From: a virus
Lineage: Duplodnaviria; Heunggongvirae; Uroviricota; Caudoviricetes
IMG/VR virus record: IMGVR_UViG_3300044712_000123
Length of the DNA: 64,000 nucleotides
Strand: one strand, 5' to 3'
Shown: piece by piece, positions 8,660-38,340 of the stretch
Layout: each line of letters begins with the position of its first letter
Numbering within the stretch: the stretch's first letter is position 1
Program-made: the position numbers and the translations under genes
The notes under the pieces: model-generated
What the model saw: the letters and a program-made list of their open reading frames with translations, nothing else
The model's database searches: none
Told to the model about the DNA's origin: nothing

Positions 8660-8724
8660 AGGATAGTAACAGCAACATTTATACTCTGAACTTTTAATTC
8701 AACCAGTAAAAATTCTATCCTGTT
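8660..8724 (+). ncRNA. CAGCAA-module RNA carrying a Lys(TTT) anticodon stem-loop
   Basis: AGGATAG-TAACAGCAA ... TGAA ctTTTaa TTCA ... CTATCCT-GTT. Confidence 0.7.
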
Positions 8725-9617: not shown

Positions 9618-9678
9618 AGGATCGGTTCAGCAACTCAAAAGCTAACTTTGGATGTCTAGCGACAAAAACGATCCTGTT
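9618..9678 (+). ncRNA. CAGCAA-module RNA (short; possible Gln TTG loop)
   Basis: AGGATCG-GTTCAGCAA ... AAAAA-CGATCCT-GTT. Confidence 0.7.
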
Positions 9679-10034: not shown

Positions 10035-10154
10035 GCCGCTGTCGTCTAATTGGCTAGGACGCTTAAAAAGGTGACTCTGACAAGAGTACATACAGCAACA
10101 TAAAAATTCCATTCTAAGGAAGTTATGGAGGTTCGAATCCTTCCGGCGGCACCA
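10035..10154 (+). tRNA. tRNA-Arg(TCT) interrupted by a 44-nt CAGCAA-module insertion
   Basis: Removing 10063-10106 gives a 76-nt cloverleaf (CTTCC atTCTaa GGAAG, GCCGCTG/CGGCGGC-A-CCA). Confidence 0.75.
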
Positions 10155-10159
10155 GTTTT

Positions 10160-10282
10160 AGGATACATTCAGCAACTAATACTTACGTCAACTAGCGTGT
10201 TGAGAGTTCGAACCTCTCCTTCGTTCTTATGGACGATGTAGCTCAATTGGTAGAGCAGCCAGCAAGTAAAAAGTATCCTGTC
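10160..10282 (+). ncRNA. CAGCAA-module RNA carrying a circularly permuted tRNA (T-arm, looped acceptor, D-arm)
   Basis: AGGATAC..GAGAG ttcgaac CTCTC-CTTCGTT/GACGATG-TAGCTC aattggta GAGC..GTATCCT. Confidence 0.75.
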
Positions 10283-15486: not shown

Positions 15487-15692
15487 GTAGTGTAGTTTAG
15501 GCTGATGGACGGCAATCTGTTCGCAGTCTGATACTTGACTTCCTGAGACAGTAGCTTTGCCGAGCGAATCACAGGGAAGTTCGATATGGTGGAATTGGCA
15601 AACACAGGTGCTTTTGAAGGCGTCTGAGGTTAAACTCTTGTAGGTTCGAATCCTACTATCGATTTATCAAGCGTCAGCCTAAACTACATTAC
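15487..15692 (+). ncRNA. Long stem-bounded RNA containing a Leu-type tRNA body (15581-15662) with aberrant anticodon loop and no CCA
   Basis: GTAGTGTAGTTTAGGCTGATG / CGTCAGCCTAAACTACATTAC; GGTGGAATTGGCAAACAC; GTAGG ttcgaat CCTAC. Confidence 0.6.
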
Positions 15693-15700
15693 AAAGTACT

Positions 15701-15837
15701 CAAACTATTTCTAAGTGTCTTATCGTCTAGAGGCTTAGGACGCAAGGGCCCACACAGTGAAGTCATAGTAACTGTATGGTGGGAATCGCCAGTGAAACGA
15801 TGGTTCGAATCCATCTAAAATACTTAAAAATAGTTTG
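15701..15837 (+). ncRNA. Stem-bounded tRNA-like RNA with anticodon arm replaced by a long hairpin
   Basis: CAAACTATTT/AAATAGTTTG; D-arm CGTCT..AGGACG; GATGG ttcgaat CCATC. Confidence 0.55.
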
Positions 15838-15882
15838 ACAATAAATCGGTGCTATGATACAATCATAGCATGAGTTGAGAAA
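15835..15882 (+). promoter_or_regulatory. sigma70 promoter, repeat copy 2
   Basis: TTGACAATAAAT..TGATACAATCATAGCATGAGTTGAGAAA; last 28 nt identical to copies at 15436 and 16003. Confidence 0.65.
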
Positions 15883-15982
15883 TCTGTTTAAAAACAGTGT
15901 GACGTAGGTTGATGCTACTCTAGGGTAGACTGATACAGAGTAACAAGCTAGTGGAAATCACACATTAAACTAGCTAAACAGG

Positions 15983-16066
15983 TTGACAATAAATACATGG
16001 TGTGATACAATCATAGCATGAGTTGAGAAAGTCATCGAACTTCTTGACAACGATCTTTAAAAATTT
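15983..16066 (+). promoter_or_regulatory. sigma70 promoter, repeat copy 3, with hairpin and boxA-like sequence
   Basis: TTGACA-17-TACAAT; GTCA..TGAC; CGATCTTTAAAAATTT. Confidence 0.65.
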
Positions 16067-16388
16067 ATAGAATATGATGTCCTCGCAAGACAACACAACG
16101 CACGATAACGCTGCCGAGTGATAACAGTCCGTAATCTTGTGAAAGAACACGTAGCGAGGAATCATATAAAAACGCATATTAGTTTGAACGTCCAGCTAAG
16201 TTACGCAATCGGCAGTTTTTAACAAGTCCGAGAGAGGCGGTGAATTGCAGGTTAGTATTGCTTTTATGTGTTTCTATATGATAGAGAGTCAATGTTAAAA
16301 GTGGGTACTAAGAATATTCGCCAGTCAGTTGCAAATGCTGTTCAGCCTAGATGGACTGTAATAAAAACATAGACTCGTCATTATTTTT

Positions 16389-16470
16389 GATACACTAGTT
16401 GACCGAGCGTAAAACTCGTGCAAAACTAATATGAATTCTGGGTTCAAATCCCGGGGTCGGCTAGGGTGTC
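16389..16470 (+). ncRNA. Stem-bounded RNA with an isolated T-arm
   Basis: GATACACTAGTTGACC / GGTCGGCTAGGGTGTC; CTGGG ttcaaat CCCGG. Confidence 0.45.
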
Positions 16471-16499
16471 GTTTTGAATAAAAACAAAAACAAATTCAT

Positions 16500-16575
16500 G
16501 CTCCGTTCGTCTATCGGTTTAGGACACCAGCCTTTCACGTTGGTAAGATGGGTTCGATTCCCATACGGAGTACCA
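16500..16575 (+). tRNA. tRNA-Glu(TTC)
   Basis: CCAGC ctTTCac GTTGG, CCA. Confidence 0.92.
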
Positions 16576-16582
16576 AGTTTAT

Positions 16583-16719
16583 GCGGTTAGTCTAGGGACA
16601 ACTCTGTGCCCGTATGTGAGTAGGAAGTAATTATCCGAGGGGCATACGGCGGTGGGAAGTGATATCACCCATTGTAAAATGACAAGACTAGTTGAGTTCG
16701 AATCTCAATGGCTGCACCA
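16583..16719 (+). ncRNA. 137-nt tRNA-like RNA: acceptor + T-arm + CCA around a non-tRNA core
   Basis: GCGGTTA/TGGCTGC-A-CCA; TTGAG ttcgaat CTCAA; CCGTATG/CATACGG hairpin. Confidence 0.6.
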
Positions 16720-16726
16720 AGATATT

Positions 16727-16803
16727 GCCCTTGTGATGGAATTGGTATACGTGCTTGACTCAAAATCAAGATTTTGCGGGTTCGAGTCCCGCTGGGGGCA
16801 CCA
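16727..16803 (+). tRNA. tRNA-Leu(CAA), short variable loop
   Basis: CTTGA ctCAAaa TCAAG, CCA. Confidence 0.88.
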
Positions 16804-16880
16804 AGTTTTGAAAGTTCGAAGAAACGCTATAAGGAAGTTACAGGTAGAACCTATCCTTGGTAAGTAACGAATTTTCTAAT

Positions 16881-16965
16881 GGAGATGAAGCATCAATGGT
16901 GATGCAGTGGACTGTAAATCCGCCGCTTTATAGCACGACTGGTTCGATCCCAGTAATCTCCACCA
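16881..16965 (+). tRNA. tRNA-Tyr(GTA)
   Basis: GTGGA ctGTAaa TCCGC, variable arm, CCA. Confidence 0.9.
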
Positions 16966-17079
16966 AGATCAACAATGAAGGATGTTTAAGACGGCTTGTA
17001 AACTTCATTGGATTCAGGAACAGATTGCCGTTAATTACTGAATCAAATTTATACTAAGACATTGTTTAGTAGTATGAGT

Positions 17080-17275
17080 AGATGGAAACCGACCCGGGAG
17101 AGACTTCCCGGGCTTCAATCAAGTGTGCATTGGTAGTTCAAGCAGATGCGATTGACGAACGATAAGCAAAGTCGGTCCAGTAGGGGTATGAAAAACATTG
17201 TCAGCGGGGACGCTGTTACCAGTCAGAAGTTAAAACTAGCGTAGGCTAGGGATAACGCCGTGTAATCTGGATCAA
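17080..17275 (+). ncRNA. Structured non-coding segment of unknown type
   Basis: ACCGAC/GTCGGT, CCCGGGA/TCCCGGG, CAGC gggga CGCTG hairpins; no credible ORF. Confidence 0.35.
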
Positions 17276-17280
17276 ATTTC

Positions 17281-17357
17281 GCTTCGTTAGCTCAGTTGGT
17301 TAGATCGCCACACTGTCACTGTGGAGGCCAGGGGTTCGAGTCCCCTACGAGGCGCCA
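17281..17357 (+). tRNA. tRNA-Asp(GTC)
   Basis: CCACA ctGTCac TGTGG, CCA. Confidence 0.9.
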
Positions 17358-17408
17358 AACACGCATTATCATGTGAGTGTCACATGATATGTAAGTCTAA
17401 TCTAATAT

Positions 17409-17483
17409 GGTCGGGTGGCAGAGCGATTATGCGGCGGATTGCAAATCCGTCTTAGGTAGGTTTGACTCCTATCTCGACCTCCA
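17409..17483 (+). tRNA. tRNA-Cys(GCA)
   Basis: GCGGA ttGCAaa TCCGT, U73, CCA. Confidence 0.88.
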
Positions 17484-17567
17484 AGGCAAATAGATATCTT
17501 GTTTTGATGCATGGTATCTCAACGGTTGTAAGTGACGATGGGTGCTATCGGAACTTACGCAAATTTT

Positions 17568-17639
17568 GAAGTGAGTAGATGCTAGTTCGATTCTAGCCCT
17601 GCGTAAGAGTAGCATAATTTGGCAATGCAACTTACTTCA
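17568..17639 (+). ncRNA. YrlA-like permuted tRNA mimic (stem, T-arm, short capped acceptor, D-arm, stem)
   Basis: GAAGTGAGT/ACTTACTTC; GCTAG ttcgatt CTAGC; GCAT aatttggca ATGC. Confidence 0.55.
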
Positions 17640-17649
17640 TCACGATTAT

Positions 17650-17737
17650 GGAGCATTGGCCGACCGGTTAAGGCAACAGATTGCTAATCTGTCATTCAGC
17701 AATGGGTGAGTAGGTTCGATTCCTACATGCTCCGCCA
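17650..17737 (+). tRNA. tRNA-Ser(GCT)
   Basis: ACAGA ttGCTaa TCTGT, long arm, CCA. Confidence 0.92.
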
Positions 17738-19737: not shown

Positions 19738-19847
19738 AGGATGTTTACAGCAAACAATCGTTTAAGGTTCAACTCCTTATTTTGCCACCAAACGCTCGAA
19801 AGGGCATCGGCAGAGTCGCGCAATGGGCGCAATCTACACATCCTGTT
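19738..19847 (+). ncRNA. CAGCAA-module RNA carrying a permuted tRNA with internal ACCA
   Basis: AGGATGT-TTACAGCAA..TAAGG ttcaact CCTTA-TTTTGCC-ACCA..GGCAGAG-TC-GCGC aatgg GCGC..ACATCCT-GTT. Confidence 0.7.
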
Positions 19848-20098: not shown

Positions 20099-20963
20099 GG
20101 GGGCTTAGCCTCATTAGAATAAGCATAGTGATATGCCCAAAGCGGTCGTCTCCTACAGACCCGCGCTAGAAATAGTTCATCTAAGCAAGCCTGCTTACAC
20201 CCGTGAGGGTGCGATCACTGATAAGACCGGTGGTTGTAACTGTAAAGCAAGTGTGTTGGAAAGAATGTCTGTTTATGTTCCCGTGAGGGTAAGACAGGCG
20301 GACAGAGAGTAACAGGTGGTGCTGACCTCAACACAAAACCAACTTGTCAACAGGTATAAGAAAAGGTAGTGTATTGATTCGAGGGGTTGCACCCAAGAGT
20401 TCGTATGCAGTTTGAGTGGTTAGTGGATATGTATGGTAACAGGCATATACACCGATCGTGAAAGACGACTGAGTAGTTCGCAAGACAAAAGGTACGTGGC
20501 GTGTTGTATTTTGTAGTCCAAAAGATTATGAAGCAACTGAGACAGCACATCACAGTAGGTTGTTATAGATCATTGGTAGATCAATTCTCTGTTAAAGAAT
20601 AGGCAGCAGGTTCAATTCCCGCTAACAAATAAAAAAGCAAAGTCTGTCTCGGTTGTATGTGAAAAGCATCTAATACTGGAGCCGCAAGGTAATTCAGTCA
20701 GACGTAACTCGCAAGGTGAAATCTGTTTATGCAGGAAGTTTCGTAAGTTGTTAGCGCAACTGAATGGCTCGCAAGGTCAGCGGAGTAGAAAGCGTAGAAT
20801 AGCATACAATGTCAAGTCTAATGCCTGACTTAAAACGGCGATGTTGGTAACAGACTAGGATACTCAGCAATGAGGCTTAGTGGAAATCAGAAGAAAGCAG
20901 TCTCGCAAGGATTGTAATAATGTCTGAGGTGTTACTCGGTAAGGATGTATTCTCAGTCCTCCA
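20099..20963 (+). ncRNA. GOLLD-like giant structured RNA (about 865 nt)
   Basis: ORF-free; many GNRA hairpins; GGGGGCT/AGTCCTCC end pairing; ACTGAGACAG/CTGTCTCGGT long-range pairing; located in a tRNA cluster and carrying an internal tRNA. Confidence 0.65.
20559..20629 (+). tRNA. tRNA-Asn(GTT)-like domain embedded in the giant RNA; no CCA
   Basis: GATC attggta GATC; ATTCT ctGTTaa AGAAT; GCAGG ttcaatt CCCGC; TTGTTA/TAACAA. Confidence 0.7.
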
Positions 20964-21495: not shown

Positions 21496-21660
21496 TACTA
21501 TAGTATACTCTTGTCATATTGGGGGACATAGCTTGCCCGTATAGTTAGGGGAATCCGTTCGCTCTAACGAGTGCTATATCTCAGATGTTCGAAAGTCTGG
21601 TTTAAGGTATACTACGAAGTTACAGTGCTTGACACGCATTGGGAGTGTATTATAGTATGG
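21493..21660 (+). ncRNA. Stem-bounded cassette
   Basis: CCATACTATAGTATACTCT / GGAGTGTATTATAGTATGG. Confidence 0.45.
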
Positions 21661-21808: not shown

Positions 21809-21884
21809 GGGGGTGTAGCTCAACTGGGAGAGCGTCTGATTTGCATTCAGAAGGTCGCGGGTTCGATCCCTGTCACCTCCACCA
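21809..21884 (+). tRNA. tRNA-Ala(TGC)
   Basis: TCTGA ttTGCat TCAGA, G3.U70, CCA. Confidence 0.93.
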
Positions 21885-21894
21885 AGTATCATGT

Positions 21895-21968
21895 TGCGGG
21901 CGAGTGTGATGGTAGCACGTTGGGCTCATAACCCAGAGGGCCGGTTCGATTCCGAGGCTACGCAACCA
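21895..21968 (+). tRNA. tRNA-fMet(CAT)-like, irregular acceptor
   Basis: TTGGG ctCATaa CCCAG (3 G-C pairs), CCA. Confidence 0.7.
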
Positions 21969-21975
21969 AATTTAT

Positions 21976-22049
21976 AGCGGGTAGGGCGGTCACCACTTCA
22001 GTCTCATAAGCTCGGAGCATCGGCAGTTCGAATCTGTCACCCGCATCCA
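21976..22049 (+). tRNA. Degenerate tRNA-Met(CAT)-like
   Basis: ctCATaa loop, A1:A72 mismatch, weak D and anticodon stems, T-arm and CCA intact. Confidence 0.5.
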
Positions 22050-22060
22050 AATTGACCTTT

Positions 22061-22179
22061 AGGTTCATTTCAGCAATCAAAATAATCTTTCTGTAAAAAA
22101 GAGGGACTGGGTTCGAATCCCAGCAGTGAGTTGGTCTTCACTGTGGTGTAATGGTAGCACGAAAAAAGTTGAACCTGTT
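22061..22179 (+). ncRNA. CAGCAA-module RNA carrying a complete circularly permuted tRNA-Tyr(GTA)
   Basis: AGGTTCA-TTTCAGCAA..TCTTT ctGTAaa AAAGA..CTGGG ttcgaat CCCAG-CAGTGAG/TTCACTG-TG-GTGT aatggt AGCAC..TGAACCT-GTT. Confidence 0.8.
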
Positions 22180-22197
22180 AACGCAAATAAATACAGC

Positions 22198-22839
22198 ATG
22201 AAGAAATCGGCTGATGATATTTTATTTGCAAGTGTAAATCTTCCAATCTTAGACAAAAAACTAGCCGCTAAAGAAATTTTAGCACTAGGTGATGAAGTGT
22301 CTTATTGGAATGATTATCGATACACAAAGATGATTCCATTAATGACAAAAGGTGGCGCCGGTCAACGAATTGGCGCTGACAATAGTAGACCTGGAGATTT
22401 TGATTGGACATCTTATGCTCCTAATGTCATTGTCGATTGGTTCGAAGAACATGTTTTTCCCTGGCTAGGTGGACGTTATCGTGTTATGGCATTGATAACA
22501 CAGCCCGGAGTAGCAAATCATGAACACATCGATTGTAACCCTGACGAACTAAATACACTTCAACATAAGTTTAGAATTGTATTACAGGGTAAGACAAGTA
22601 CATTGTATTGGTTAACGGACAACGGCAACGTTTATGTACCTGATACAGAGAAAGCATTTATCATGGATGGCGGTTGGCCTCATGGTATGACAAATACAAC
22701 TGACGAGATTAAAGTAACATTGGCATTGGGTGCCCCCTGGGTAGGCAATGAAAGTTACGGTGATGATATCACTATCTTGCAGAGAAGACAAGATTATAGA
22801 ATGCCAGAGAAGATAGATCATCTTTGGCAAAAGAGTTAA
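22198..22839 (+). CDS. Aspartyl/asparaginyl beta-hydroxylase-like 2OG-Fe(II) oxygenase
   Basis: NHEHID..HKFRIVL..MDGGWPHGMTN. Confidence 0.75.
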   Translation: MKKSADDILFASVNLPILDKKLAAKEILALGDEVSYWNDYRYTKMIPLMTKGGAGQRIGADNSRPGDFDWTSYAPNVIVDWFEEHVFPWLGGRYRVMALITQPGVANHEHIDCNPDELNTLQHKFRIVLQGKTSTLYWLTDNGNVYVPDTEKAFIMDGGWPHGMTNTTDEIKVTLALGAPWVGNESYGDDITILQRRQDYRMPEKIDHLWQKS

Positions 22840-29449: not shown

Positions 29450-29600
29450 AGGATCGGTACAGCAATAATTTACTTTATTGGAACTGATGGATCGCATGGT
29501 AGCTATTGGAGTCTACGGACGTTGAAGGTAGTTATTGAAATGCATCTATCGCAATAGGAGTGATGGCCCTATTCAAAAAGCAGTCAACAACGATCCTGTT
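29450..29600 (+). ncRNA. CAGCAA-module RNA with about 115-nt cargo
   Basis: AGGATCG-GTACAGCAA ... CGATCCT-GTT; inner ACTG/CAGT, GATGGAT/ATCTATC, AATAGG/CCTATT. Confidence 0.7.
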
Positions 29601-29626
29601 ATTTTTCGTATCATTGCAAAAAAGTG

Positions 29627-29655
29627 TTGACAAATAACACAAACAATGATACAAT
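29627..29655 (+). promoter_or_regulatory. sigma70 promoter; predicted start at the module RNA 29663
   Basis: TTGACA-17-TACAAT. Confidence 0.7.
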
Positions 29656-29662
29656 ACATTTT

Positions 29663-29719
29663 AGGATGCATTCAGCAACTTTAATCTTTTTCATAATAAG
29701 AGCAAAAGCGCATCCTGTT
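29663..29719 (+). ncRNA. CAGCAA-module RNA carrying a Met(CAT) anticodon stem-loop
   Basis: AGGATGC-ATTCAGCAA..TCTT-t ttCATaa t-AAGA..GCATCCT-GTT. Confidence 0.72.
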
Positions 29720-29744: not shown

Positions 29745-31169
29745 ATGCAATTCGCAGAAGCAATCAAAAACCAAGAAGTTCGTACTACTAATGGTATGAA
29801 GGCACGTAAGTCAAGCGCAAACGCTTGTGTAGACTTGTTCTACAACCTAGGTGCAAGCCGAGGTAAAAACGTTATCCCAGCATTCACTGCGGCTTATGTC
29901 GAGAACAGTGATCTGGCACTGCGTATTGCACAGTGGGCACGTGATGCCCGCGGTGGTTCCGGTGAACGCCAAGTGTTCCGAGATATTCTTGTTCACTTGG
30001 AAAAGACTAACCCAGAAGACGCTATGCGTTTGATGGCGAAGATCCCAGAAATCGGTCGTTATGACGACTTGCTAGTGTTTAAGACTCAGCCTGTGAAGGC
30101 TAAGGCATACACTATGCTTGGCGATGCACTTCGTGCCCGTAACGGTCTCGCGGCTAAGTGGACTCCTCGTAAGGGTGAAGTCGCACGTGAAATCCGCGAA
30201 TTCTTCGGAATGACTCCTAAGCAATACCGTAAGAGCCTTGTTGCACTTACTAACGTTGTGGAAACACAAATGTGTGCTAAGGATTGGGATAACATCAACT
30301 TCTCGCATGTTCCTTCAGTGGCACATGCACGTTACAAGAAGGCGTTTGGCCGTAATGGCACAACTTACGCTGAATACGTAACTAAGTTGGTTAAGGGCGA
30401 AGCAGGTGTCAAAATCAACGCTGGTGCAGTTTTCCCTTACGATGTGTTGAAGGGTGCTATCAACCGATACAGCCGTTCAGCTATGTCTAAGACTGAGTTG
30501 GATGCATTGCAAGCCCAATGGGACGCATTGCCTAACTACGTCGGTGACGCTAACGTGTTGCCTATGGTTGACTCGTCAGGTTCGATGACTTGCGCGGCAG
30601 GTGGTTACAACTCTAAGTCAGGCTTGTCTTGCTTGGATGTTGCACTGTCTTTGGGCTTGTACTTCGCTGACAAGAACAAGGGTAAGTTCAAGGATACGTT
30701 CTTGACTTTCTCTAACACACCAAAGTTGGTTAACTTGAAGGGTAACATCAATCAAAAGATTGACCAAATGAACACAGGCGAAGTTGCTAACACCAACTTG
30801 AATGCGGCGTTCAACTTGATCCTCAAGACAGCGTTGGACAACAATGTTCCTCAAGCAGAAATGCCAGAAACATTGGTGATCTTCTCTGACATGCAGTTCG
30901 ACCAAGGCGTTAAGCACGATGACAGCGCAATCGAAATGATTGCACGTAAGTATGAAGCCGCAGGCTACGCGATCCCTAAGGTCGTGTTCTGGAACTTGAA
31001 TGCCGCTTATGGCAACACCCCTGTCAAGTTCGATAAGAGTGGTACCGCTCTTGTCTCTGGTTTCAGCCCAGCTGTTGCAACTTCTGTATTGTCAGGAGAC
31101 TTGGAAGACTTCACACCAGAAGCTATCATGTTGAAGACAGTTATGAAGGATCGTTACGACTTGTCGTAA
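29745..31169 (+). CDS. DUF2828-family TROVE-like/vWA protein (Ro60-like architecture)
   Basis: N-terminal TTNG..VDLF..RDARGGSGERQVF..GRYDDL..AKWTPR helical region; vWA MIDAS VDSSGSM..T..SDMQFD..VFWNL..VSGFS. Confidence 0.8.
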   Translation: MQFAEAIKNQEVRTTNGMKARKSSANACVDLFYNLGASRGKNVIPAFTAAYVENSDLALRIAQWARDARGGSGERQVFRDILVHLEKTNPEDAMRLMAKIPEIGRYDDLLVFKTQPVKAKAYTMLGDALRARNGLAAKWTPRKGEVAREIREFFGMTPKQYRKSLVALTNVVETQMCAKDWDNINFSHVPSVAHARYKKAFGRNGTTYAEYVTKLVKGEAGVKINAGAVFPYDVLKGAINRYSRSAMSKTELDALQAQWDALPNYVGDANVLPMVDSSGSMTCAAGGYNSKSGLSCLDVALSLGLYFADKNKGKFKDTFLTFSNTPKLVNLKGNINQKIDQMNTGEVANTNLNAAFNLILKTALDNNVPQAEMPETLVIFSDMQFDQGVKHDDSAIEMIARKYEAAGYAIPKVVFWNLNAAYGNTPVKFDKSGTALVSGFSPAVATSVLSGDLEDFTPEAIMLKTVMKDRYDLS

Positions 31170-33534: not shown

Positions 33535-33708
33535 ATGAAACAAGTCGTTTACAAAGGTTCAGTGTTAGCTAAAGGTAGTACTGCACTTGAACTGTGGGAA
33601 AACTGGCAAAAAGAAAAGAAAGATCGGAACGCCGCTCAAAAGAAGCTGGACGTCCATATGAAAGAAGTCGAACAGCGTCACCGAGACTTGCTGGATCGAT
33701 ACAAATAA
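33535..33708 (+). CDS. Small hypothetical protein (57 aa)
   Basis: Downstream of TTGACT-17-TATAAT at 33476. Confidence 0.6.
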   Translation: MKQVVYKGSVLAKGSTALELWENWQKEKKDRNAAQKKLDVHMKEVEQRHRDLLDRYK

Positions 33709-33722
33709 GAAAAGAGAATAAT

Positions 33723-34190
33723 ATGCCTTGGATTGAAAATTGTGCGGCTGATGATATCCCAAAGAGATTTCACCACGAAGCCGGTGAGAATAGTATGCTG
33801 ATTAGCATTACAGACCCAGCAAGTTGGAGACCAACTCCTGCTCACAAGTTCAAAGAGATTCACAATTTTGAATTCTTGGATATTGAAAAAGACGATTTTG
33901 CATTGGACGAGGCAATGCGTTGTAGTCAAGAGCAAGCAAACGAATTAGTCCGATTGTTGCAACATGCAAAGGAAAATCGAATGAACGTTGTGGTTCATTG
34001 CTTTGCAGGTATCTGTCGCAGTGGTGCAGTGTGTGAGGTTGGTGTCATGATGGGTTTTGAAGACACTGGCAGATTTCGCAGTCCTAACTTGCTTGTCAAG
34101 CATCGCATGATGCGCGCCCTCGGCTGGACCTACGATGAGGATGAGAAACCGAATGTCGATGACTGGAGAACTTTTAGGAACGACAATTAA
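33723..34190 (+). CDS. Protein-tyrosine/dual-specificity phosphatase-like protein
   Basis: VVVHCFAGICRSG (CX5R). Confidence 0.85.
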   Translation: MPWIENCAADDIPKRFHHEAGENSMLISITDPASWRPTPAHKFKEIHNFEFLDIEKDDFALDEAMRCSQEQANELVRLLQHAKENRMNVVVHCFAGICRSGAVCEVGVMMGFEDTGRFRSPNLLVKHRMMRALGWTYDEDEKPNVDDWRTFRNDN

Positions 34191-34235
34191 TGATAAAAGT
34201 GCTTGGTTGGGATAAATAAGTATATAGGAGAAATC

Positions 34236-34886
34236 ATGAATACTTATCCAACTAAAGCAAAACCGTATGTTTATCGCTGTACTAACAAAATCACTGGTCA
34301 TTTTTATATAGGATATCGTGAGGCGAATGTTAAACTGAATAGGATACCAGAAATTGATTTTCCGTTATATAAGAGTTCTTCAAAAGCAGTTAAGGACAAC
34401 TTTGACAATTTTGAATGGACTATCGTAGCAGAATTTGAGACTGGTAAAGATGCGTATTCATTTGAGCAAAAATTGATTCATGAGCACTGGAATGAACCAT
34501 TACTCTTGAACGAACATTGCTGTCACAATGAACAACAATTCAGAAGATCGGCACCACCGTGGAATAAAGGAAGAACAGGGTTATATAGCAGAACTGATGA
34601 TACCAGGCAGAAAATAAAACAAAAACGAGCACTTCAAGTTATGGGAGAATCTCCTTTAAAGGGAAAGTCATATAATGATATTCACGGGGAAGATGCAGTA
34701 TCTTTGAAGAAGAAAATTTCTGAAAAAATGTTAAGCGCAGGTATAAAAAGAACCGAAGAGTTTAAAGAAAATTTGAGAAAACCAAAAGAGAAAATCACTT
34801 GCCCACATTGCGGTAAAACAGGGGGTGGTGGTTCAATGATTCAATGGCACTTTGATAAATGTAAAAATAGGAATTTAGATGTTTAA
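34236..34886 (+). CDS. GIY-YIG homing endonuclease with NUMOD3-like repeats
   Basis: YVYRCTNKITGHFYIGYR; PWNKG; TRQKIK; C-terminal CPHCGK..WHFDKC. Confidence 0.8.
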   Translation: MNTYPTKAKPYVYRCTNKITGHFYIGYREANVKLNRIPEIDFPLYKSSSKAVKDNFDNFEWTIVAEFETGKDAYSFEQKLIHEHWNEPLLLNEHCCHNEQQFRRSAPPWNKGRTGLYSRTDDTRQKIKQKRALQVMGESPLKGKSYNDIHGEDAVSLKKKISEKMLSAGIKRTEEFKENLRKPKEKITCPHCGKTGGGGSMIQWHFDKCKNRNLDV

Positions 34887-35109
34887 AGTAATAGGCAAAG
34901 ATGTAGAATATGAAGTTCATTCACTGGATGACGCCATGTTCTTGGCAAAAAAGATGAACGAATTCGTGACCATACGTGGTCAAGATGGAATGGAATTTGT
35001 AGGCAAGTTTGGTGTTGATTCAGTGAAAGATGGTAAGTGCCCTGACGGTGTCGCTTACGACTGGAACAAGGCATCACGCATCGGTGCTCCAAAACGAGTC
35101 AGAGTTTAA
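34879..35109 (+). CDS. Hypothetical protein
   Basis: 76 aa coupled ORF. Confidence 0.7.
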   Translation: MFKVIGKDVEYEVHSLDDAMFLAKKMNEFVTIRGQDGMEFVGKFGVDSVKDGKCPDGVAYDWNKASRIGAPKRVRV

Positions 35110-35112
35110 TAC

Positions 35113-35141
35113 TTGACAATAAATCGGTTTGGGCATATAAT
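35113..35141 (+). promoter_or_regulatory. Early sigma70 promoter; family copies at 36389, 40561, 41022, 42356, 42783, 43067, 49888, 50304, 63873
   Basis: TTGACAATAAAT or TTGACTTTAAT, 17-bp spacer, TATAAT/TACAAT/TATACT. Confidence 0.85.
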
Positions 35142-35168
35142 CAATCTATTGAATGAAAGGAGCATAGT

Positions 35169-35360
35169 ATGGGTTACAATACAAAACACTTTGACCATGA
35201 AGCACACTATGCTTCCAAGTCAACAAAAGAACTTGAGGCACTGTTAAAACAGGCTGAAAAGTTTGTACAGGATCATCCTAAGTTTGAATTCAGTTGGCAC
35301 AATGAGTATCGCCATAAATTGAAACTGTTGATTGCAGAAAGAATTGGAAAAAGAAAATGA
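35169..35360 (+). CDS. Hypothetical protein
   Basis: AGGAG RBS, 63 aa. Confidence 0.7.
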   Translation: MGYNTKHFDHEAHYASKSTKELEALLKQAEKFVQDHPKFEFSWHNEYRHKLKLLIAERIGKRK

Positions 35361-35899
35361 CAAAATGGATTACAAGTGACCTGCATTTCGGTCACGCAAA
35401 TATTATGAAGTTCTGCCCAGTAACACGGGCAGGCTTCACTGACACCGATCACATGCGTGAGCAAATGATCTCCGAGTGGAACCGTGACGTTAAGCCAGAA
35501 GATGAAACATTCATTCTGGGTGACTTTGCATTCTTGCCGGCTAAGGATGCAGTCGCAATCTTGCGCCGATTGAACGGTACAAAGATTTTGATTGAAGGTA
35601 ATCACGACCGCAAACTGTTGAACGACCCTAGTTTCCGTAATGAGTTCAAAGAAGTTCACCAGTACTTGCGTTATGTGCATGAAGGCACTACTGTGATTAT
35701 GTTGCACTATCCTATCTTGGAATGGGACCAGATGCATCGTGGAGCAGTTCATTTCTATGGACACGTTCATGGTGCAAAGACTGGTATGGAAAAGTATCGT
35801 TGTCGTGACGTAGCGTTTGACGCTACTGGTCGAGTTGTTAGCAACTTGGACATGATGATTAAAGACGCATTGAAAGGTGAGATTAAGTCTCACCACTAA
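35357..35899 (+). CDS. Calcineurin-like metallophosphoesterase
   Basis: SDLHFGH, LGDF, GNHD, HY, GHVH. Confidence 0.92.
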   Translation: MTKWITSDLHFGHANIMKFCPVTRAGFTDTDHMREQMISEWNRDVKPEDETFILGDFAFLPAKDAVAILRRLNGTKILIEGNHDRKLLNDPSFRNEFKEVHQYLRYVHEGTTVIMLHYPILEWDQMHRGAVHFYGHVHGAKTGMEKYRCRDVAFDATGRVVSNLDMMIKDALKGEIKSHH

Positions 35900-35908
35900 G
35901 GAGAAAGT

Positions 35909-36370
35909 ATGCCAAAGTGTTATCAACTGATTGGAGTGCCTGGCGCAGGCAAGAGTACTTGGATTAAGAACCAAGAGTGGGCTAACGATTGTGTGGTTGT
36001 TTCTACTGACGAGTTCGTAGAAGATTACGCAAAAGAAGTAGGCTCAACATACAGTGATGTATTTGACGACTACATGCCTACTGCTGTCAAGTTGATGGCT
36101 GATAAGGTTGTTCGTGCCCGTAATGCAGGTAAAGATATTATCTGGGACCAAACATCTACTAGCGAAGGCTCACGTAGAAAGAAGTTCAATATGTTACCTG
36201 ACTATGAACACATTGCGGTGGTGTTTAAGACTCCTGAAATGGATGAATTGAAGCGCCGTCTTGCATCGCGCCCAGGCAAGAATATCCCATCGCACGTGAT
36301 GGTTCAAATGATTCGCAGTTTTGTAATGCCCACACTAGATGAAGGCTTCACTGAAATTCGAGTAGTATAA
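35909..36370 (+). CDS. AAA_33 polynucleotide-kinase-like protein
   Basis: GVPGAGKST, STD, WDQT..R, RR..R. Confidence 0.88.
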   Translation: MPKCYQLIGVPGAGKSTWIKNQEWANDCVVVSTDEFVEDYAKEVGSTYSDVFDDYMPTAVKLMADKVVRARNAGKDIIWDQTSTSEGSRRKKFNMLPDYEHIAVVFKTPEMDELKRRLASRPGKNIPSHVMVQMIRSFVMPTLDEGFTEIRVV

Positions 36371-36447
36371 AGTATTACTTTTCAGTGGTTGACTTTAATT
36401 CAGTTTGGGCATATAATAGATACTTAGATTGATTAAAGGAGTGAGCA

Positions 36448-36984
36448 ATGGAAGGTTTTACATTTGAATTGTCGGGTATGGACATTGTCCAAAAGGCCCA
36501 GGTCTACGCCATTGCTGCTCACTCGGCTGTTCAGCAAAAGCGTAAGTACACTGGCGAACCCTACTTTGTTCACCCTGCAGAGGTTGCACAAATCGTAGCC
36601 AGTGTTCCAGGTTCTACTCCTGACATGGTTGCGGCAGCTTGGTTGCATGATGTTGTAGAAGACACTGGCTGCACATTCACTGACATTCACATGGCTTTCG
36701 GTATCGATATCGCTGTGTTGGTTCAGTGGTTGACTGACGTTTCTAAGCCCGAAGATGGCAATCGTGCTACTCGCAAGGCAATGGATCGTGAGCATACTGC
36801 ACAAGCACCTGCTGAGGCACAGACCATCAAGTTGGCAGATTTGATCTCCAACAGCAAGAGTATCATGGCACACGACCCTGACTTTGCCAAGACTTACTTG
36901 GAAGAAAAAAGATTGTTGTTGGCTGTGATGACTAAGGGTGATCGCGGCTTGCACGCCGAAGCTAGTAAGTACGTTGGAGTTTAA
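36448..36984 (+). CDS. RelA/SpoT-type HD hydrolase (Mesh1-like)
   Basis: AH..Q.RKYTGEPYFVHP.EVA..LHDVVEDT..KLADLISN. Confidence 0.88.
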   Translation: MEGFTFELSGMDIVQKAQVYAIAAHSAVQQKRKYTGEPYFVHPAEVAQIVASVPGSTPDMVAAAWLHDVVEDTGCTFTDIHMAFGIDIAVLVQWLTDVSKPEDGNRATRKAMDREHTAQAPAEAQTIKLADLISNSKSIMAHDPDFAKTYLEEKRLLLAVMTKGDRGLHAEASKYVGV

Positions 36985-36986
36985 GA

Positions 36987-37175
36987 ATGACTAATCCTGT
37001 AACCAAAGACAATTTAGTTCGAGGTGGTAAGTATAACTGGAAGTGGCAACCTGAACGACTAGTATACTTGCGTCAGGTTGGTGCATGGTATCAGTTTGCA
37101 TTGACTTCCAACCCTGAGAAGATTTGGTGCGAAGTTCTTGCAGAAGACTTGGAAATGTTTGAGGAAACAAAATGA
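36987..37175 (+). CDS. Hypothetical protein
   Basis: 62 aa ORF. Confidence 0.7.
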   Translation: MTNPVTKDNLVRGGKYNWKWQPERLVYLRQVGAWYQFALTSNPEKIWCEVLAEDLEMFEETK

Positions 37176-37438
37176 ACAAACAAATCAAAGAACTTGCTGA
37201 ACAGGCTGGACTCAGAATTGAGTATCAGATGATTAACCCGCCCAAGCCTTTTCAGATTCTTGGTAGTACTGAACAGTTTGAAAAGTTCGCCGAGTTGATT
37301 ATCAATGACTGTGCTAGTCTATGTGAGATTGAAAGCCGATCATACACTTATTCTTTCACACCAGCAAAGGCACGATTAGCAGAATCTACTGCAAAGAATT
37401 GCGGTACAATAATCAAACGACATTTTGGAGTCGAATAA
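37172..37438 (+). CDS. Small paralogous protein (IKELA.QA..EKFAELI..HFGVE family)
   Basis: Similar to 38963 and 51334. Confidence 0.75.
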   Translation: MNKQIKELAEQAGLRIEYQMINPPKPFQILGSTEQFEKFAELIINDCASLCEIESRSYTYSFTPAKARLAESTAKNCGTIIKRHFGVE

Positions 37439-38340
37439 TGTTTAAAGAAGAATTGAAAAAGTACGTAGAGACTTCGGGCCTAGTGAACATGAAAGAGGCT
37501 GGCGCCGGCATCTTCATCTTGAAGTATAAGAAGAAGGTGTTCTACGATAACCTGTGGAACGAGTACATCGCTGAATGCCGTGGATCAGTGATTGATAAGG
37601 ATTTCAACCTAGTTGCTTATCCCTTCACAAAAATCTACAACTATGGCATTGAGAAAGAAGCACCCGTGCTTTCTGACGACACTCAAGTAACTGCTTTCCG
37701 TAAGGTTAATGGTTTCATGGTTGCAGTTTCGTATCACAACGGTGACGTTTTTGTATCTACTACAGGTTCTACTTTGGGTGACTATGTTGGCTATGCTAAG
37801 GATATGATGCTAAAGCACATGCCCTGGAGTGACTGGCAAATGGCACTAGCAGCCGATGACTGCCGAGACATGACCTTCATGTTTGAGTGCGTACATCCCA
37901 ACGATCCTCATATCGTGGTTGAAAAGCCAGGTATGTACATCTTGGGTTATCGTGAAAAGACTTGGGGGTCTAAGGTAGGTCATGATGTTTTCATGCTACA
38001 AGAACTTGGTCATGTGTTCAACTGTTTTGTACCAGAAAGCGTAACAACTAACCTGGCACAACTAAAGATCATGGTCAAGGAATGTAAGCACGAAGGCTTT
38101 GTGTTCTATACACAGGACGGAGTTAGCTCTAAGATCAAGAGTCCATACTACTTGACTTCAAAGTGGGTAGCACGTAACCCTCGTACAGACAAGCTAGTTG
38201 ACCTGAACAAGGACATCAAGCAAAATCTGGACGAAGAATACTACCCACTAGTGGATGCAATTCGTGCTAACATCGTTGAATACACTAGTATGGACGAGCA
38301 AGCTCGCCTAGCATGGGTTCGTAATTTTGTGAGTGCGTGA
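37438..38340 (+). CDS. T4 Rnl1-like RNA ligase
   Basis: ECRG....PFTKIYN; motif I KVNG; TFMFE; EGFV; KIKS..Y. Confidence 0.85.
   Translation: MFKEELKKYVETSGLVNMKEAGAGIFILKYKKKVFYDNLWNEYIAECRGSVIDKDFNLVAYPFTKIYNYGIEKEAPVLSDDTQVTAFRKVNGFMVAVSYHNGDVFVSTTGSTLGDYVGYAKDMMLKHMPWSDWQMALAADDCRDMTFMFECVHPNDPHIVVEKPGMYILGYREKTWGSKVGHDVFMLQELGHVFNCFVPESVTTNLAQLKIMVKECKHEGFVFYTQDGVSSKIKSPYYLTSKWVARNPRTDKLVDLNKDIKQNLDEEYYPLVDAIRANIVEYTSMDEQARLAWVRNFVSA

What the first reader, a model, noticed from the sequence alone, without database searches (positions are those of the whole stretch)
22061..22179. Complete circularly permuted tRNA-Tyr held inside the CAGCAA module
Seen, 5' to 3': module 5' strand, anticodon arm TCTTT-ctGTAaa-AAAGA, T-arm CTGGG-ttcgaat-CCCAG, acceptor 3' strand CAGTGAG, short loop, acceptor 5' strand TTCACTG, D-arm GTGT-aatggt-AGCAC, A-linker, module 3' strand. 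All four arms are present, with the break at the D-arm/anticodon junction. Established: YrlA RNAs are permuted tRNA mimics but lack an anticodon; permuted tRNA genes are known from algae and archaea. Inference: either a Y-like mimic that keeps its anticodon, or a precursor that is ligated and reopened at the acceptor loop.
Basis: partly seen in the sequence, partly recalled or inferred. Interest (0 to 1): 0.85.

Follow-up and report, generated by a model that had tools for sequence, protein, structure and literature searches.

The report
Phage Y-like RNA carrying permuted tRNA
This is a conserved small phage RNA in which a complete but rearranged, sealed tRNA look-alike hangs on a "handle" shared by hundreds of phage RNAs that sit next to a Ro60-like protein gene, so it is most likely a tRNA decoy or adaptor of a new Ro/Y-RNA-type particle and not a working tyrosine tRNA.

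Summary
Positions 22061-22176 contain all four tRNA arms in circularly permuted order, and ARAGORN calls the rejoined sequence tRNA-Tyr(GUA). All five helices covary across 58 aligned homologs from the first of two model searches.

It is probably not a Tyr tRNA:
- The phage already has a canonical class II tRNA-Tyr with CCA at 16881-16965.
- In 36 distinct orthologs only the loop flanks (CU...AA) are fixed. The "anticodon" takes 12 different triplets.
- The loop sealing the acceptor stem (UUGGUC) is invariant and complementary to a conserved 5' leader (GACC), which suggests a pseudoknot.

The outer stem plus NUNCAGCAA is a handle found 7 times in the window and in 448 distinct copies in fetched phage contigs. 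In 57 of 71 loci fetched through the protein alone, a handle RNA lies within 400 nt upstream of a DUF2828 gene, on the same strand. That protein's predicted fold matches Ro60.

Best reading: a YrlA-like Y RNA with a full tRNA mimic as cargo, in a phage that also carries an RNA-repair cassette. Protein binding and function are inferred. The handle also resembles Dictyostelium Class I RNAs. This scan found the handle family before on other genomes, but I found no paper describing it.

The parts
22052..22060 (+). Conserved 5' leader UUGACCUUU. GACC (22054-22057) is complementary to GGUC of the acceptor-closing loop.
   Evidence: Present before every close ortholog whatever lies upstream. Co-occurs with the UUGGUC loop in 35 copies and is absent in 48 copies without that loop; the 3 nominal discordants are regex artefacts. 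A Synechococcus phage homolog has UACCU with AGGUA, and L010 has GUUUUA with UAAAAC.
22061..22067 (+). Handle 5' strand AGGUUCA, pairs with 22170-22176.
   Evidence: All 7 pairs show changes on both sides and 97.5% of cells pair. 166 of 193 pattern hits have the exact reverse complement downstream.
22068..22076 (+). Handle motif UUUCAGCAA (family consensus NUNCAGCAA), probably the protein-recognition element.
   Evidence: Zero entropy in 22 orthologs. Seven copies in the window against 0 of 100 shuffles. Aligns with the Dictyostelium Class I motif.
22077..22085 (+). A/U-rich linker between the motif and the anticodon-like arm.
   Evidence: Variable in sequence, mean entropy 0.60.
22086..22102 (+). 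Anticodon-arm look-alike: 5-bp stem UCUUU/AAAGA, 7-nt loop CUGUAAA, triplet GUA at 22093-22095.
   Evidence: Stem covaries in divergent relatives (UUCCU/AGGAA, UUUGC/GCAAA, UCGC/GCGA, UGCA/UGCA). Flanks are CU..AA in 32 of 36 and 12 triplets occur. Position 22094 has entropy 1.60 while the flanks have 0.
22103..22106 (+). Four-nucleotide variable region GGGA (tRNA positions 44-48).
   Evidence: It varies among orthologs (GGGG, CGGG, GGGU and others), which breaks the alternative 7-bp register of the minimum-energy fold in the CGGG-type copies.
22107..22123 (+). T arm CUGGG-UUCGAAU-CCCAG.
   Evidence: Loop invariant; 4 of 5 stem pairs change on both sides.
22124..22143 (+). Acceptor stem (CAGUGAG / UUCACUG) sealed by the hexaloop UUGGUC (22131-22136). 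No CCA is encoded.
   Evidence: All 7 stem pairs covary and this is the highest-entropy region. The loop is invariant in 36 distinct orthologs.
22144..22161 (+). U8-G9, then D arm GUGU-AAUGGUA-GCAC, then G26.
   Evidence: 3 of 4 stem pairs change on both sides. A14, G18, G19 and A21 are present.
22162..22169 (+). A-rich 3' linker AAAAAAGU.
   Evidence: An A-rich stretch before the 3' strand is a family-wide feature.
22170..22180 (+). Handle 3' strand UGAACCU followed by the conserved GUUA tail.
29745..31169 (+). Ro60-like gene (DUF2828 + DUF7788; HEAT-repeat ring plus vWA domain with a DxSxS MIDAS motif), the presumed protein partner.
   Evidence: Pfam. AlphaFold model with pLDDT 80. The top 13 PDB matches are all Ro60/TROVE, E 2.5e-9 to 3.4e-5. 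Swiss-Prot matches are Ro60 of mouse, Deinococcus, C. elegans, Xenopus and human. D276, S278 and S280 are invariant.
29450..29716 (+). Two sibling handle RNAs (29450-29597 and 29663-29716) directly upstream of the Ro60-like gene. The second has its own TTGACA-17-TACAAT promoter.
   Evidence: The same arrangement occurs in 57 of 71 loci fetched through the protein.
8660..8721 (+). Sibling handle RNA whose cargo is a bare anticodon-stem-loop look-alike (loop CUUUUAA).
9618..9675 (+). Sibling handle RNA with a short cargo.
10160..10279 (+). Sibling handle RNA with T arm, closed acceptor and D arm (YrlA-type cargo).
   Evidence: 36 bits with model R1.
19738..19844 (+). Sibling handle RNA: T arm, acceptor 3' strand followed by ACCA, a GAAA hairpin spacer, acceptor 5' strand, D arm.
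10035..10154 (+). Normal-order tRNA-Arg(UCU) with a loop-closed copy of the handle inserted at the same D-arm/anticodon-arm junction.
   Evidence: ARAGORN finds nothing in the full sequence but calls tRNA-Arg(tct) after removal of 10063-10106. Fold.
16881..16965 (+). Canonical class II tRNA-Tyr(GUA) with long variable arm and encoded CCA.
   Evidence: Rfam tRNA 36 bits. ARAGORN at a relaxed threshold calls tRNA-Tyr(gta), 85 nt.
35357..38340 (+). RNA end-healing and sealing cassette: metallophosphoesterase, P-loop kinase (AAA_33), HD-domain protein, Rnl1-type RNA ligase.
   Evidence: Pfam.

Best explanation
Positions 22052-22180 encode a stable non-coding RNA of a large phage family that works like a Y RNA.

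The 5' and 3' ends pair into a 7-bp stem. Together with the adjacent single-stranded NUNCAGCAA and an A-rich 3' linker, this stem forms a constant 'handle'. I infer that the handle is the docking site for the phage's Ro60-like (DUF2828, TROVE-fold plus vWA) protein.

The variable cargo held by this handle is here a complete tRNA look-alike: anticodon arm, variable region, T arm, acceptor stem and D arm. The handle enters at the position 26/27 hinge. The acceptor end is sealed by an invariant loop that probably pairs with the 5' leader.

Because the acceptor end is closed and the 'anticodon' is free to vary, the RNA does not decode. Instead it presents a tRNA shape to tRNA-binding factors. The most likely targets are host enzymes that attack or modify tRNA anticodon loops, which the RNA would either decoy or tether to the Ro60-like ring. 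The phage also carries about 50 tRNAs and an RNA healing and ligation cassette, which fits this role.

Shown here: the structure, its conservation and covariation, the family, the genomic linkage to the Ro60-fold gene, and the non-conservation of the triplet.

Inferred: protein binding, the pseudoknot, and the decoy/adaptor role.
For: Structure: all arms are present and ARAGORN accepts the rejoined form. All five helices covary.

Family: 7 handles in the window. At least 119 viral contigs match one strict pattern, and 166 of 193 hits have an exactly complementary 3' strand. There are 448 distinct modules in the fetched loci.

Partner: the DUF2828 model matches Ro60/TROVE structures over its full length. 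In loci fetched by the protein alone, 57 of 71 have a handle RNA within 400 nt upstream on the same strand, and modules number 144 on the gene strand against 0 on the other.

YrlA likeness: same part order. Rfam YrlA scores sibling cargo at 31-49 bits, E down to 5e-8.

Not a Tyr tRNA: 12 triplets in 36 orthologs with fixed CU..AA flanks. A canonical tRNA-Tyr lies elsewhere. The acceptor loop is invariant and has a matching leader.

Context: a kinase, phosphoesterase, HD protein and Rnl1 ligase cassette. A Ro60-like protein upstream of the tRNA genes of phage Bas63 counters the Ppl defence (bioRxiv 10.1101/2024.10.10.617714), and Felix-O1-type coliphages carry homologs at about 39% identity.

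Expression hint: contigs of close relatives span the whole unit in 3 of 4 metatranscriptomes.
Against: - No binding data exist. The link to the Ro60-like protein rests on synteny and analogy.
- This copy lies 7.6 kb from the gene, inside the tRNA array, not beside it.
- The YrlA Ro-binding motif GNCGAA is absent, and Rfam YrlA does not hit this copy at E <= 10.
- Bas63 gp130 worked from a plasmid in T7 infections, that is without any handle RNA, so the protein has at least one RNA-independent activity.
- The metatranscriptome evidence is from assembled contigs and cannot exclude DNA carry-over. One such contig is 5.3 kb long.
- The variable triplet could simply be unconstrained and need not reflect an arms race.
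- The leader-loop pairing has few independent compensatory examples, and a shuffle control was weak (0.68 observed against a mean of 0.54).
Confidence: 0.7

Rival explanations
1. It is a true circularly permuted tRNA gene. The transcript would be cut at the handle, the D arm ligated to the anticodon arm (for example by the phage Rnl1-type ligase), the acceptor loop opened by RNase P and RNase Z, CCA added, and the product used in translation.
For: The cloverleaf is complete and ARAGORN accepts the rejoined form. The anticodon loop has canonical C32, U33, A37 and A38. A normal-order tRNA-Arg carries the same handle at the same junction as if it were an intron. The phage encodes an RNA ligase and end-healing enzymes.
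Against: - The triplet differs among near-identical orthologs (12 triplets) without matching changes elsewhere.
- The short variable region is unlike bacterial tRNA-Tyr, and a canonical class II tRNA-Tyr with CCA is present.
- The acceptor loop is invariant and paired with a conserved leader, and no CCA is encoded.
- Many family members carry cargo that cannot form a tRNA.
- No bulge-helix-bulge motif is visible by inspection.
- No joined form appears in RNA contigs.
Confidence: 0.05
2. The handle is not a protein-docking site. It is a processing, stability or punctuation cassette of phage tRNA-array transcripts, and the tRNA look-alike acts alone (for example as a free decoy). The neighbourhood with the Ro60-like gene would then reflect shared operon position only.
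For: Handles usually start 1-5 nt after the CCA of an upstream tRNA and end in GUU plus a U-rich tail. This copy is co-transcribed with four tRNA-like genes from a promoter at 21629-21656. Bas63 gp130 acts without handle RNAs.
Against: A mere processing signal would not be expected to sit 15-40 nt upstream of the Ro60-like start codon in most loci fetched through the protein across 41-99% protein identity, always on the gene strand. Its design (terminal stem plus a conserved single-stranded motif on the 5' side plus variable cargo) is that of Y RNAs.
Confidence: 0.15
3. It is a decaying or rearranged tRNA remnant, or a tRNA-derived mobile repeat, with no function of its own.
For: It lies in a dense tRNA array where duplications and rearrangements are common.
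Against: There are 36 distinct orthologs with compensatory changes in every helix and with invariant loops. A homolog scoring 91.7 bits is present in a cultured Synechococcus phage.
Confidence: 0.02

Closest known systems
YrlA Y RNAs of bacteria and phages (Rfam RF02553; Chen et al. 2014, PMC4201824; Wang et al. 2018, bioRxiv 10.1101/312249)
   Same: The 5' and 3' ends pair. There is a conserved motif on the 5' side. The cargo is a tRNA mimic in the order (hairpin) - T arm - closed acceptor-like stem - D arm, with no free CCA. The RNA is encoded on the same strand as a Ro60-fold gene. Sibling modules score 31-49 bits with RF02553.
   Different: The motif is NUNCAGCAA, not GNCGAAN0-1G. The partner is DUF2828, which is only 12-16% identical to Ro60. 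This copy adds a true 5-bp/7-nt anticodon-arm look-alike and a 4-nt variable region, so the handle enters at position 26/27 and does not replace the anticodon stem. The acceptor loop is invariant and probably forms a pseudoknot. RF02553 gives no hit on this copy.
Class I RNAs of dictyostelid amoebae (Rfam RF01414; Kjellin et al. 2021, PMC7919456)
   Same: [quoted passage not shown] The motif ...UUACAGCAA lies directly after the 5' strand. The middle is variable, there is an A-rich stretch before the 3' strand, and the end reads ...CUG(U). Short sibling modules (52-62 nt) match RF01414 over its full length at 26-36.5 bits, with 11 hits in 51 kb.
   Different: All scores are below the gathering score of 41.5. 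This copy is twice as long because of its tRNA cargo and scores only 18.5 bits. Class I RNAs are reported as unique to dictyostelids, with the RRM protein Rnp1A as their known binder. I did not test whether dictyostelids have a DUF2828 protein.
Circularly permuted tRNA genes of Cyanidioschyzon merolae, some green algae and Thermofilum (own knowledge; reviewed in PMC3400036 and PMC4238349, listed)
   Same: The 3' half (anticodon arm, T arm, acceptor 3' strand) lies upstream of the 5' half (acceptor 5' strand, D arm), and all arms are present.
   Different: Those genes mature through a bulge-helix-bulge cut, a circular intermediate and RNase P/Z, and they keep a fixed anticodon. Here no such motif is visible, the acceptor linker is invariant, the triplet is not conserved, and the host system is bacterial.
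Thermus phage phiLo Ro60 with Yrl1/Yrl2 (PMC12135203)
   Same: A phage-encoded Ro60-fold protein with two small RNAs directly upstream of its gene. This structure is the best PDB match to the window's protein (9kop, 9l5y).
   Different: The phiLo RNAs carry the CGAA motif and no tRNA-like cargo is described for them.
Bas63 gp130, a Ro60-like anti-Ppl protein (bioRxiv 10.1101/2024.10.10.617714)
   Same: A Ro60-like phage protein beside a tRNA array. The authors guessed that some 'tRNA genes' are Y RNAs. Felix-O1-type coliphages hold homologs of the window's protein at about 39% identity.
   Different: No partner RNA was defined there, and the protein acted without phage RNAs in T7. I did not align gp130 itself with the window's protein.

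Membership tests
YrlA (Rfam RF02553) | Reaches the family's covariance-model gathering score (69 bits) | tested here: not met
   No RF02553 match at E <= 10 on 21850-22350. Sibling modules in other loci reach 30.8-48.9 bits.
YrlA (Rfam RF02553) | GNCGAAN0-1G motif near the 5' end (Chen et al. 2014) | tested here: not met
   The 5' side reads AGGUUCA-UUUCAGCAA with no CGAA.
YrlA (Rfam RF02553) | tRNA-like domain in the order T arm, closed acceptor-like stem, D arm, with tRNA tertiary nucleotides and no free CCA | tested here: met
   T loop UUCGAAU; U8, A14, G18, G19 and A21 are present.
YrlA (Rfam RF02553) | Encoded within about 4 kb of a Ro60 ortholog on the same strand | tested here: inconclusive
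   This copy is on the same strand but 7.6 kb upstream. Two siblings lie directly upstream of the gene, and 57 of 71 related loci have one within 400 nt. The protein is Ro60-like by fold only.
CAGCAA-handle RNAs next to DUF2828 genes (unpublished family seen in this scan) | Terminal 7-bp stem that covaries, NUNCAGCAA after the 5' strand, A-rich linker before the 3' strand, GUU tail | tested here: met
CAGCAA-handle RNAs next to DUF2828 genes (unpublished family seen in this scan) | A DUF2828 (Ro60-fold) gene in the same genome, on the same strand | tested here: met
   Gene at 29745-31169. Linkage statistics.
CAGCAA-handle RNAs next to DUF2828 genes (unpublished family seen in this scan) | Physical binding of the handle by the DUF2828 protein | not testable with these tools
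   No RNA-protein prediction or experiment was available.
Circularly permuted tRNA genes | 3' half upstream of 5' half, with all cloverleaf arms | tested here: met
Circularly permuted tRNA genes | Anticodon (tRNA identity) conserved among orthologs | tested here: not met
   12 triplets in 36 distinct orthologs; GTA in 15.
Circularly permuted tRNA genes | Bulge-helix-bulge motif at the junction of the precursor ends | tested here: not met
   By inspection only: a 7-bp stem flanked by 18-nt and 9-nt single strands, with no 3-nt bulges around a 4-bp helix.
Circularly permuted tRNA genes | Joined (D arm to anticodon arm) or circular RNA exists | tested here: inconclusive
   No such joint in contigs of 4 metatranscriptomes. 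Contigs drop rare forms.
Dictyostelid Class I RNA (Rfam RF01414) | Reaches the gathering score (41.5 bits); 42-65 nt long | tested here: not met
   18.5 bits on the 5' part of this copy. Short siblings reach 26.5-36.5 bits. This copy is 116-129 nt.
Dictyostelid Class I RNA (Rfam RF01414) | 5'/3' stem plus the adjacent ...CAGCAA motif plus a ...CUG(U) end | tested here: met
Ro60 / TROVE proteins (for the partner gene) | HEAT-repeat ring followed by a vWA domain with a MIDAS motif | tested here: met
   Foldseek TM 0.5-0.6 over the full length to 1yvp, 2i91, 9kop and 9l5y. DxSxS is invariant. The Pfam TROVE family itself is not hit; DUF2828 and DUF7788 are.

The most novel reading that the evidence does not exclude
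The tRNA look-alike is bait. Its anticodon-like loop keeps the shape that anticodon-directed host enzymes recognise (C32, U33, A37, A38). The three central bases change from phage to phage, tracking whichever tRNA the local defence nuclease attacks. The handle delivers the captured enzyme, or the cut RNA, to the Ro60-like ring and the phage's heal-and-seal enzymes. The same handle design in Dictyostelium Class I RNAs would then mean that a second, DUF2828-based branch of Ro/Y-RNA particles extends from phages to eukaryotes.
Probability: 0.2. Interest if true: 0.85.

Novelty: new variant of a known kind. Interest (0 to 1): 0.68.

Why it matters
Ro60/Y-RNA particles are known from animals, some bacteria and a few phages, but what the tRNA-like part of bacterial Y RNAs does is still open.

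Here a much larger and apparently undescribed branch appears. The DUF2828 Ro60-like protein has at least 7,900 protein clusters at 90% identity in public data and occurs in 702 cultured phage records. It comes with a modular RNA family whose cargo ranges from bare anticodon loops to this complete, sealed, permuted tRNA.

That gives a direct handle on the question. The cargo says which cellular machinery is being addressed, namely tRNA-binding enzymes, and cultured systems exist for testing:
- Synechococcus phage BUCT-ZZ01 carries a homolog of this very RNA.
- Felix-O1-type coliphages carry the protein.

It also warns annotators that tRNA-array 'gaps' and odd tRNA calls in phages hide non-decoding RNAs. 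If the resemblance to Dictyostelium Class I RNAs is homology, it would suggest a protein partner and a function for an orphan eukaryotic RNA class.

Tried and rejected
- The argument that tRNA-Tyr is missing from the phage set: ARAGORN's default list lacks Tyr, but a class II tRNA-Tyr exists at 16881-16965. Rejected.
- The alternative 7-bp register of the hairpin from the minimum-energy fold: mismatched in orthologs with the CGGG variable region and not supported by divergent relatives. Rejected in favour of 5 bp plus a 7-nt loop.
- Close relatives in GenBank phages by DNA: only tRNA-level matches.
- No whole genome is held for this window.
- phmmer of the DUF2828 protein against PDB sequences: nothing. 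The fold search was needed.
- ESM Atlas look-up: only viral DUF2828 clusters, no taxonomic reach.
- AlphaFold DB cluster search: DUF2828/DUF7788 entries are found, but organism names are masked, so the presence of the family in dictyostelids could not be checked.
- A profile search of 5.8 billion proteins returned only close phage relatives.
- The 2011 Class I RNA protein pull-down paper is not held.
- Linkage of this RNA type to the Rnl1 ligase: ligase homologs lie 2-3 kb downstream in a few loci only. Too weak to use.
- The neighbouring ORF 22198-22839 has no Pfam match and only one homolog in the loci.
- Shuffle control for leader-loop complementarity: weak, 0.68 against 0.54, because most copies share one motif pair.
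- Ribozyme, CRISPR-repeat and terminator readings of the handle: no matching consensus. The only terminator-like hits are the T arm read on the minus strand.
Full report
**Setting.** The window is part of an uncultured large aquatic phage. ARAGORN finds 49 tRNA genes between 7.9 and 32.6 kb, 47 of them between 7.9 and 23 kb, and Rfam finds a GOLLD RNA at 20496-20959. The finding lies at the end of a run of tRNA genes that follows a strong promoter at 21629-21656.

Reading 22061-22176 gives these parts in order:
- a 7-nt strand AGGTTCA
- TTTCAGCAA
- an A/U-rich linker
- a hairpin TCTTT-CTGTAAA-AAAGA
- GGGA
- a T arm
- an acceptor 3' strand
- the loop TTGGTC
- the acceptor 5' strand
- TG
- a D arm
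- G
- an A-rich linker
- TGAACCT, which pairs with the first strand

Joining the 5' half to the 3' half in silico gives a sequence that ARAGORN calls tRNA-Tyr(gta), whatever base I put at position 26. The thermodynamic fold of the single sequence shows the same arms but is only marginally better than shuffles (z = -1.95), so the case rests on comparison.

**Homologs and covariation.** A strict DNA pattern for this subtype found 37 viral contigs, which gave 22 distinct full-length orthologs. A covariance model built on them found 58 and 41 matches in two sets of fetched phage loci.

On the 58-sequence alignment 94.9% of cells pair, and 26 of 28 pairs change on both sides. No shuffle out of 500 reaches any measure, and sliding the partners drops pairing to 39-45%. 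This alignment is fitted to the model, which flatters the numbers. The raw sequences show the same pattern, however. The acceptor stem differs in almost every ortholog but always pairs. The T stem switches among CUGGG/CCCAG, CCAGG/CCUGG and CCGGG/CCCGG. In more distant relatives the anticodon-like stem becomes UUCCU/AGGAA, UUUGC/GCAAA, UCGC/GCGA or UGCA/UGCA while keeping a 7-nt loop. The minimum-energy 7-bp register of that hairpin is broken in the orthologs whose variable region reads CGGG. The tRNA register (5 bp, 7-nt loop, 4-nt variable region) is therefore the conserved one.

**It is not a tyrosine tRNA.**
- *The set is not short of Tyr.* Rfam scores a tRNA at 16881-16962. ARAGORN at a slightly relaxed threshold calls it tRNA-Tyr(gta), 85 nt, with the long variable arm typical of bacterial tRNA-Tyr and an encoded CCA.
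- *The triplet is not conserved.* Among 36 distinct orthologs that share the invariant acceptor loop, the flanks of the 7-nt loop are CU..AA in 32. The three central bases are GTA (15), GAA (6), GGA (3), GCA (3), GCG (2) and seven singletons. In the 22-sequence alignment the middle base (22094) has entropy 1.60, the highest of any unpaired position. The loop flanks, the T loop, the acceptor loop and the CAGCAA motif have entropy 0. Contigs of relatives in metatranscriptomes again differ from the window precisely at 22093-22095.
- *The acceptor end is sealed.* The closing loop UUGGUC never varies although the stem beneath it varies freely. No CCA is encoded, unlike in the neighbouring tRNAs.

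Every ortholog is preceded by UUGACC(A/U)UUU, whatever lies further upstream. GACC is complementary to GGUC of the acceptor loop.
- The two motifs co-occur in 35 copies and are both absent in 48 related copies. The three nominal exceptions are artefacts of my pattern.
- Copies with GGUC followed by A have U before GACC, and three copies with GGUC followed by U have A before GACC.
- In Synechococcus phage BUCT-ZZ01 the loop reads AGGUA and the leader UACCU.
- In L010 the loop reads UAAAAC and the leader GUUUUA.

I read this as a 4-6 bp pseudoknot that ties the acceptor end to the 5' leader. The independent examples are few and a shuffle control was weak, so this remains an inference.

**The outer stem is a family-wide handle.** The pattern TTTAGGNTNNNTNCAGCAA occurs 7 times in the window, all on the plus strand, and no shuffle out of 100 gives as many. 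In 166 of 193 hits the exact reverse complement of the 7-nt strand follows within 400 nt, which is covariation on a large scale. I counted 448 distinct modules in the loci fetched: 217 short (up to 75 nt), 100 with a T arm, and 131 long without one.

Cargo types include:
- bare anticodon-stem-loop look-alikes: 87 of the 163 short modules that have a 7-nt-loop hairpin carry CU..AA flanks, with triplets led by UUU, UGU, UCU, UGA, CAU, GUA and UAU
- D arm, anticodon arm and T arm in normal order, with the handle in place of the acceptor stem
- T arm, closed acceptor and D arm
- the complete permuted form described here

In the window, a normal-order tRNA-Arg(UCU) at 10035-10154 carries a loop-closed copy of the handle at exactly the same D-arm/anticodon-arm junction. 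Removing 10063-10106 restores an ARAGORN call. The simple YrlA topology, with the handle replacing the anticodon stem, fits less well.

**The partner gene.** Two handle RNAs lie directly upstream of ORF 29745-31169. Pfam assigns this ORF to DUF2828 plus DUF7788.
- An AlphaFold model built on 24 homologs (pLDDT 80) matches only Ro60/TROVE structures at the top of the PDB list. These are phiLo phage Ro60, Xenopus, human and Deinococcus Ro60, at E 2.5e-9 to 3.4e-5 and TM 0.5-0.6 over the full length. Ro60 proteins also lead the Swiss-Prot list.
- A DxSxS MIDAS motif is invariant.
- Of 152 loci fetched only for the RNA pattern, 53 contain this gene.
- In the unbiased direction, 71 loci fetched by the protein had at least 450 nt of upstream sequence. 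Of these, 57 have a handle RNA ending within 400 nt upstream on the same strand, typically 28-40 nt before the start codon. All 144 modules in those loci are on the gene strand.

This is the same kind of linkage that defined YrlA and the phiLo Yrl RNAs.

**Relation to known families.**
- *YrlA.* Rfam's YrlA model hits sibling modules with T/acceptor/D cargo at 31-49 bits (E down to 5e-8), always below its gathering score of 69. It does not hit this copy. The YrlA motif GNCGAA is absent. The RNA therefore works like a YrlA but is not a member of that family.
- *Dictyostelium Class I RNA.* The Rfam Class I model hits short handle RNAs over its full length at 26-36.5 bits, below its gathering score of 41.5, with 11 hits in 51 kb. 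Kjellin et al. (PMC7919456) define Class I RNAs by a 6-bp 5'/3' stem that covaries, an 11-nt motif CCUUACAGCAA next to the 5' strand, a variable middle and a CUGU end. They report them as unique to dictyostelids. The phage handle has the same layout. DUF2828/DUF7788 proteins also occur in cellular AlphaFold DB clusters; their organism names are masked, and the plant-type protein name in one row and the plant and tardigrade papers that mention DUF2828 suggest that some are eukaryotic. I could not check dictyostelids.
- *Earlier notes of this scan.* They report the same handle family and the same Class I resemblance in at least 36 other genomes. I reached both independently here before reading them. 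I found no paper that describes the RNA family.

**Context and mechanism.** Downstream of the Ro60-like gene lie a dual-specificity-type phosphatase, a metallophosphoesterase, a P-loop kinase of the polynucleotide-kinase type (AAA_33), an HD protein and an Rnl1-type RNA ligase. Together these form a heal-and-seal set like the one phage T4 uses to mend tRNA cut by anticodon nucleases (own knowledge; reviewed for jumbo phages in PMC7824862). A Ro60-like protein next to the tRNA genes of phage Bas63 counters the Ppl defence, and Felix-O1-type coliphages carry homologs of the window's protein.

Putting this together, I commit to the following reading. The RNA is a Y-RNA-like adaptor. Its handle docks on the Ro60-like ring. 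Its cargo is a sealed tRNA mimic that presents an anticodon loop of canonical shape but free sequence to tRNA-binding enzymes, most plausibly as a decoy or tether for host factors that attack or modify tRNA. The structure, the family and the linkage are shown. Binding, the pseudoknot and the decoy role are inferred.

**Expression.** Contigs of close relatives (at least 90% identical) cover 22051-22180 without a break in three of four freshwater metatranscriptomes from different studies. None shows the predicted D-arm/anticodon-arm joint. The 'goes back' joints at 22168/22180 to 21977 reflect a different gene order in relatives. Because these are assembled contigs, one of them 5.3 kb long, they show presence in RNA libraries only. 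They do not show RNA ends or abundance, and they do not prove the absence of a rare joined form.

**Testability.** A homolog of this very RNA, unannotated, scores 91.7 bits in the cultured Synechococcus phage BUCT-ZZ01, which infects S. elongatus PCC 7942. That phage also holds the closest cultured homolog of the protein (47.5% identity).

**Verdict.** The element is a new variant of the Ro60/Y-RNA theme and not a permuted tRNA gene in the algal or archaeal sense.

Noticed in passing
window 20496-20959: GOLLD RNA (Rfam 215.7 bits) with a tRNA-Asn gene (20558-20631) inside it. Contigs matching it reach summed depths of up to about 3e5 in freshwater metatranscriptomes, far above anything else in the stretch.
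   Followed up: partly
window 10035-10154: tRNA-Arg(UCU) with open acceptor end and CCA, interrupted between D arm and anticodon arm by a 44-nt loop-closed copy of the handle. ARAGORN calls it only after the insert is removed. Whether the insert is spliced out or kept as a fifth arm is unknown.
   Followed up: partly
window 29663-29716; L113:1318-1371; L040, L043, L045, L065, L067: Short handle RNAs match the Rfam Dictyostelium Class I RNA model over its full length (26-36.5 bits, gathering score 41.5). They share its stem, CAGCAA motif, A-rich stretch and CUG end. Class I RNAs are reported as unique to dictyostelids (PMC7919456).
   Followed up: partly
window 21896-21964: tRNA-like element with a CAU anticodon loop scoring 27.8 bits with Rfam tRNA, just under the gathering score of 29. 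ARAGORN misses it.
   Followed up: no
window 15700-17650: Dense unannotated structured DNA with orphan T-arm motifs at 15799, 16438, 16692 and 17581 that belong to no called tRNA. ARAGORN also calls a tRNA with a four-base anticodon (ttga) at 15579-15665.
   Followed up: no
window about 15415, 15830, 15985, 19880, 29628: A recurring promoter-like sequence (TTGACAATAAAT...GATACAAT, followed by CATAGCATGAGTTGAGAAA in three copies) heads several non-coding stretches.
   Followed up: no
window 33594-38340: Cluster of a dual-specificity-type phosphatase, a GIY-YIG nuclease, a metallophosphoesterase, an AAA_33 P-loop kinase, an HD-domain protein and an Rnl1-type RNA ligase. It is a likely RNA end-healing and sealing set.
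   Followed up: partly
L233:6002-6116 (Synechococcus phage BUCT-ZZ01, ON615601.1, about 122122-122236, minus strand): Unannotated homolog of the permuted tRNA-like RNA in a cultured cyanophage (91.7 bits). Its loop triplet is GGA, and a different but again complementary leader/acceptor-loop pair is present (UACCU with AGGUA).
   Followed up: yes
window 19738-19844: Handle RNA in which the acceptor 3' strand is followed by ACCA and a GAAA-capped hairpin spacer before the acceptor 5' strand. It looks like a permuted tRNA fragment that keeps its CCA.
   Followed up: no
window 2365-3465: Full-length S-adenosylmethionine synthetase gene in the phage.
   Followed up: no
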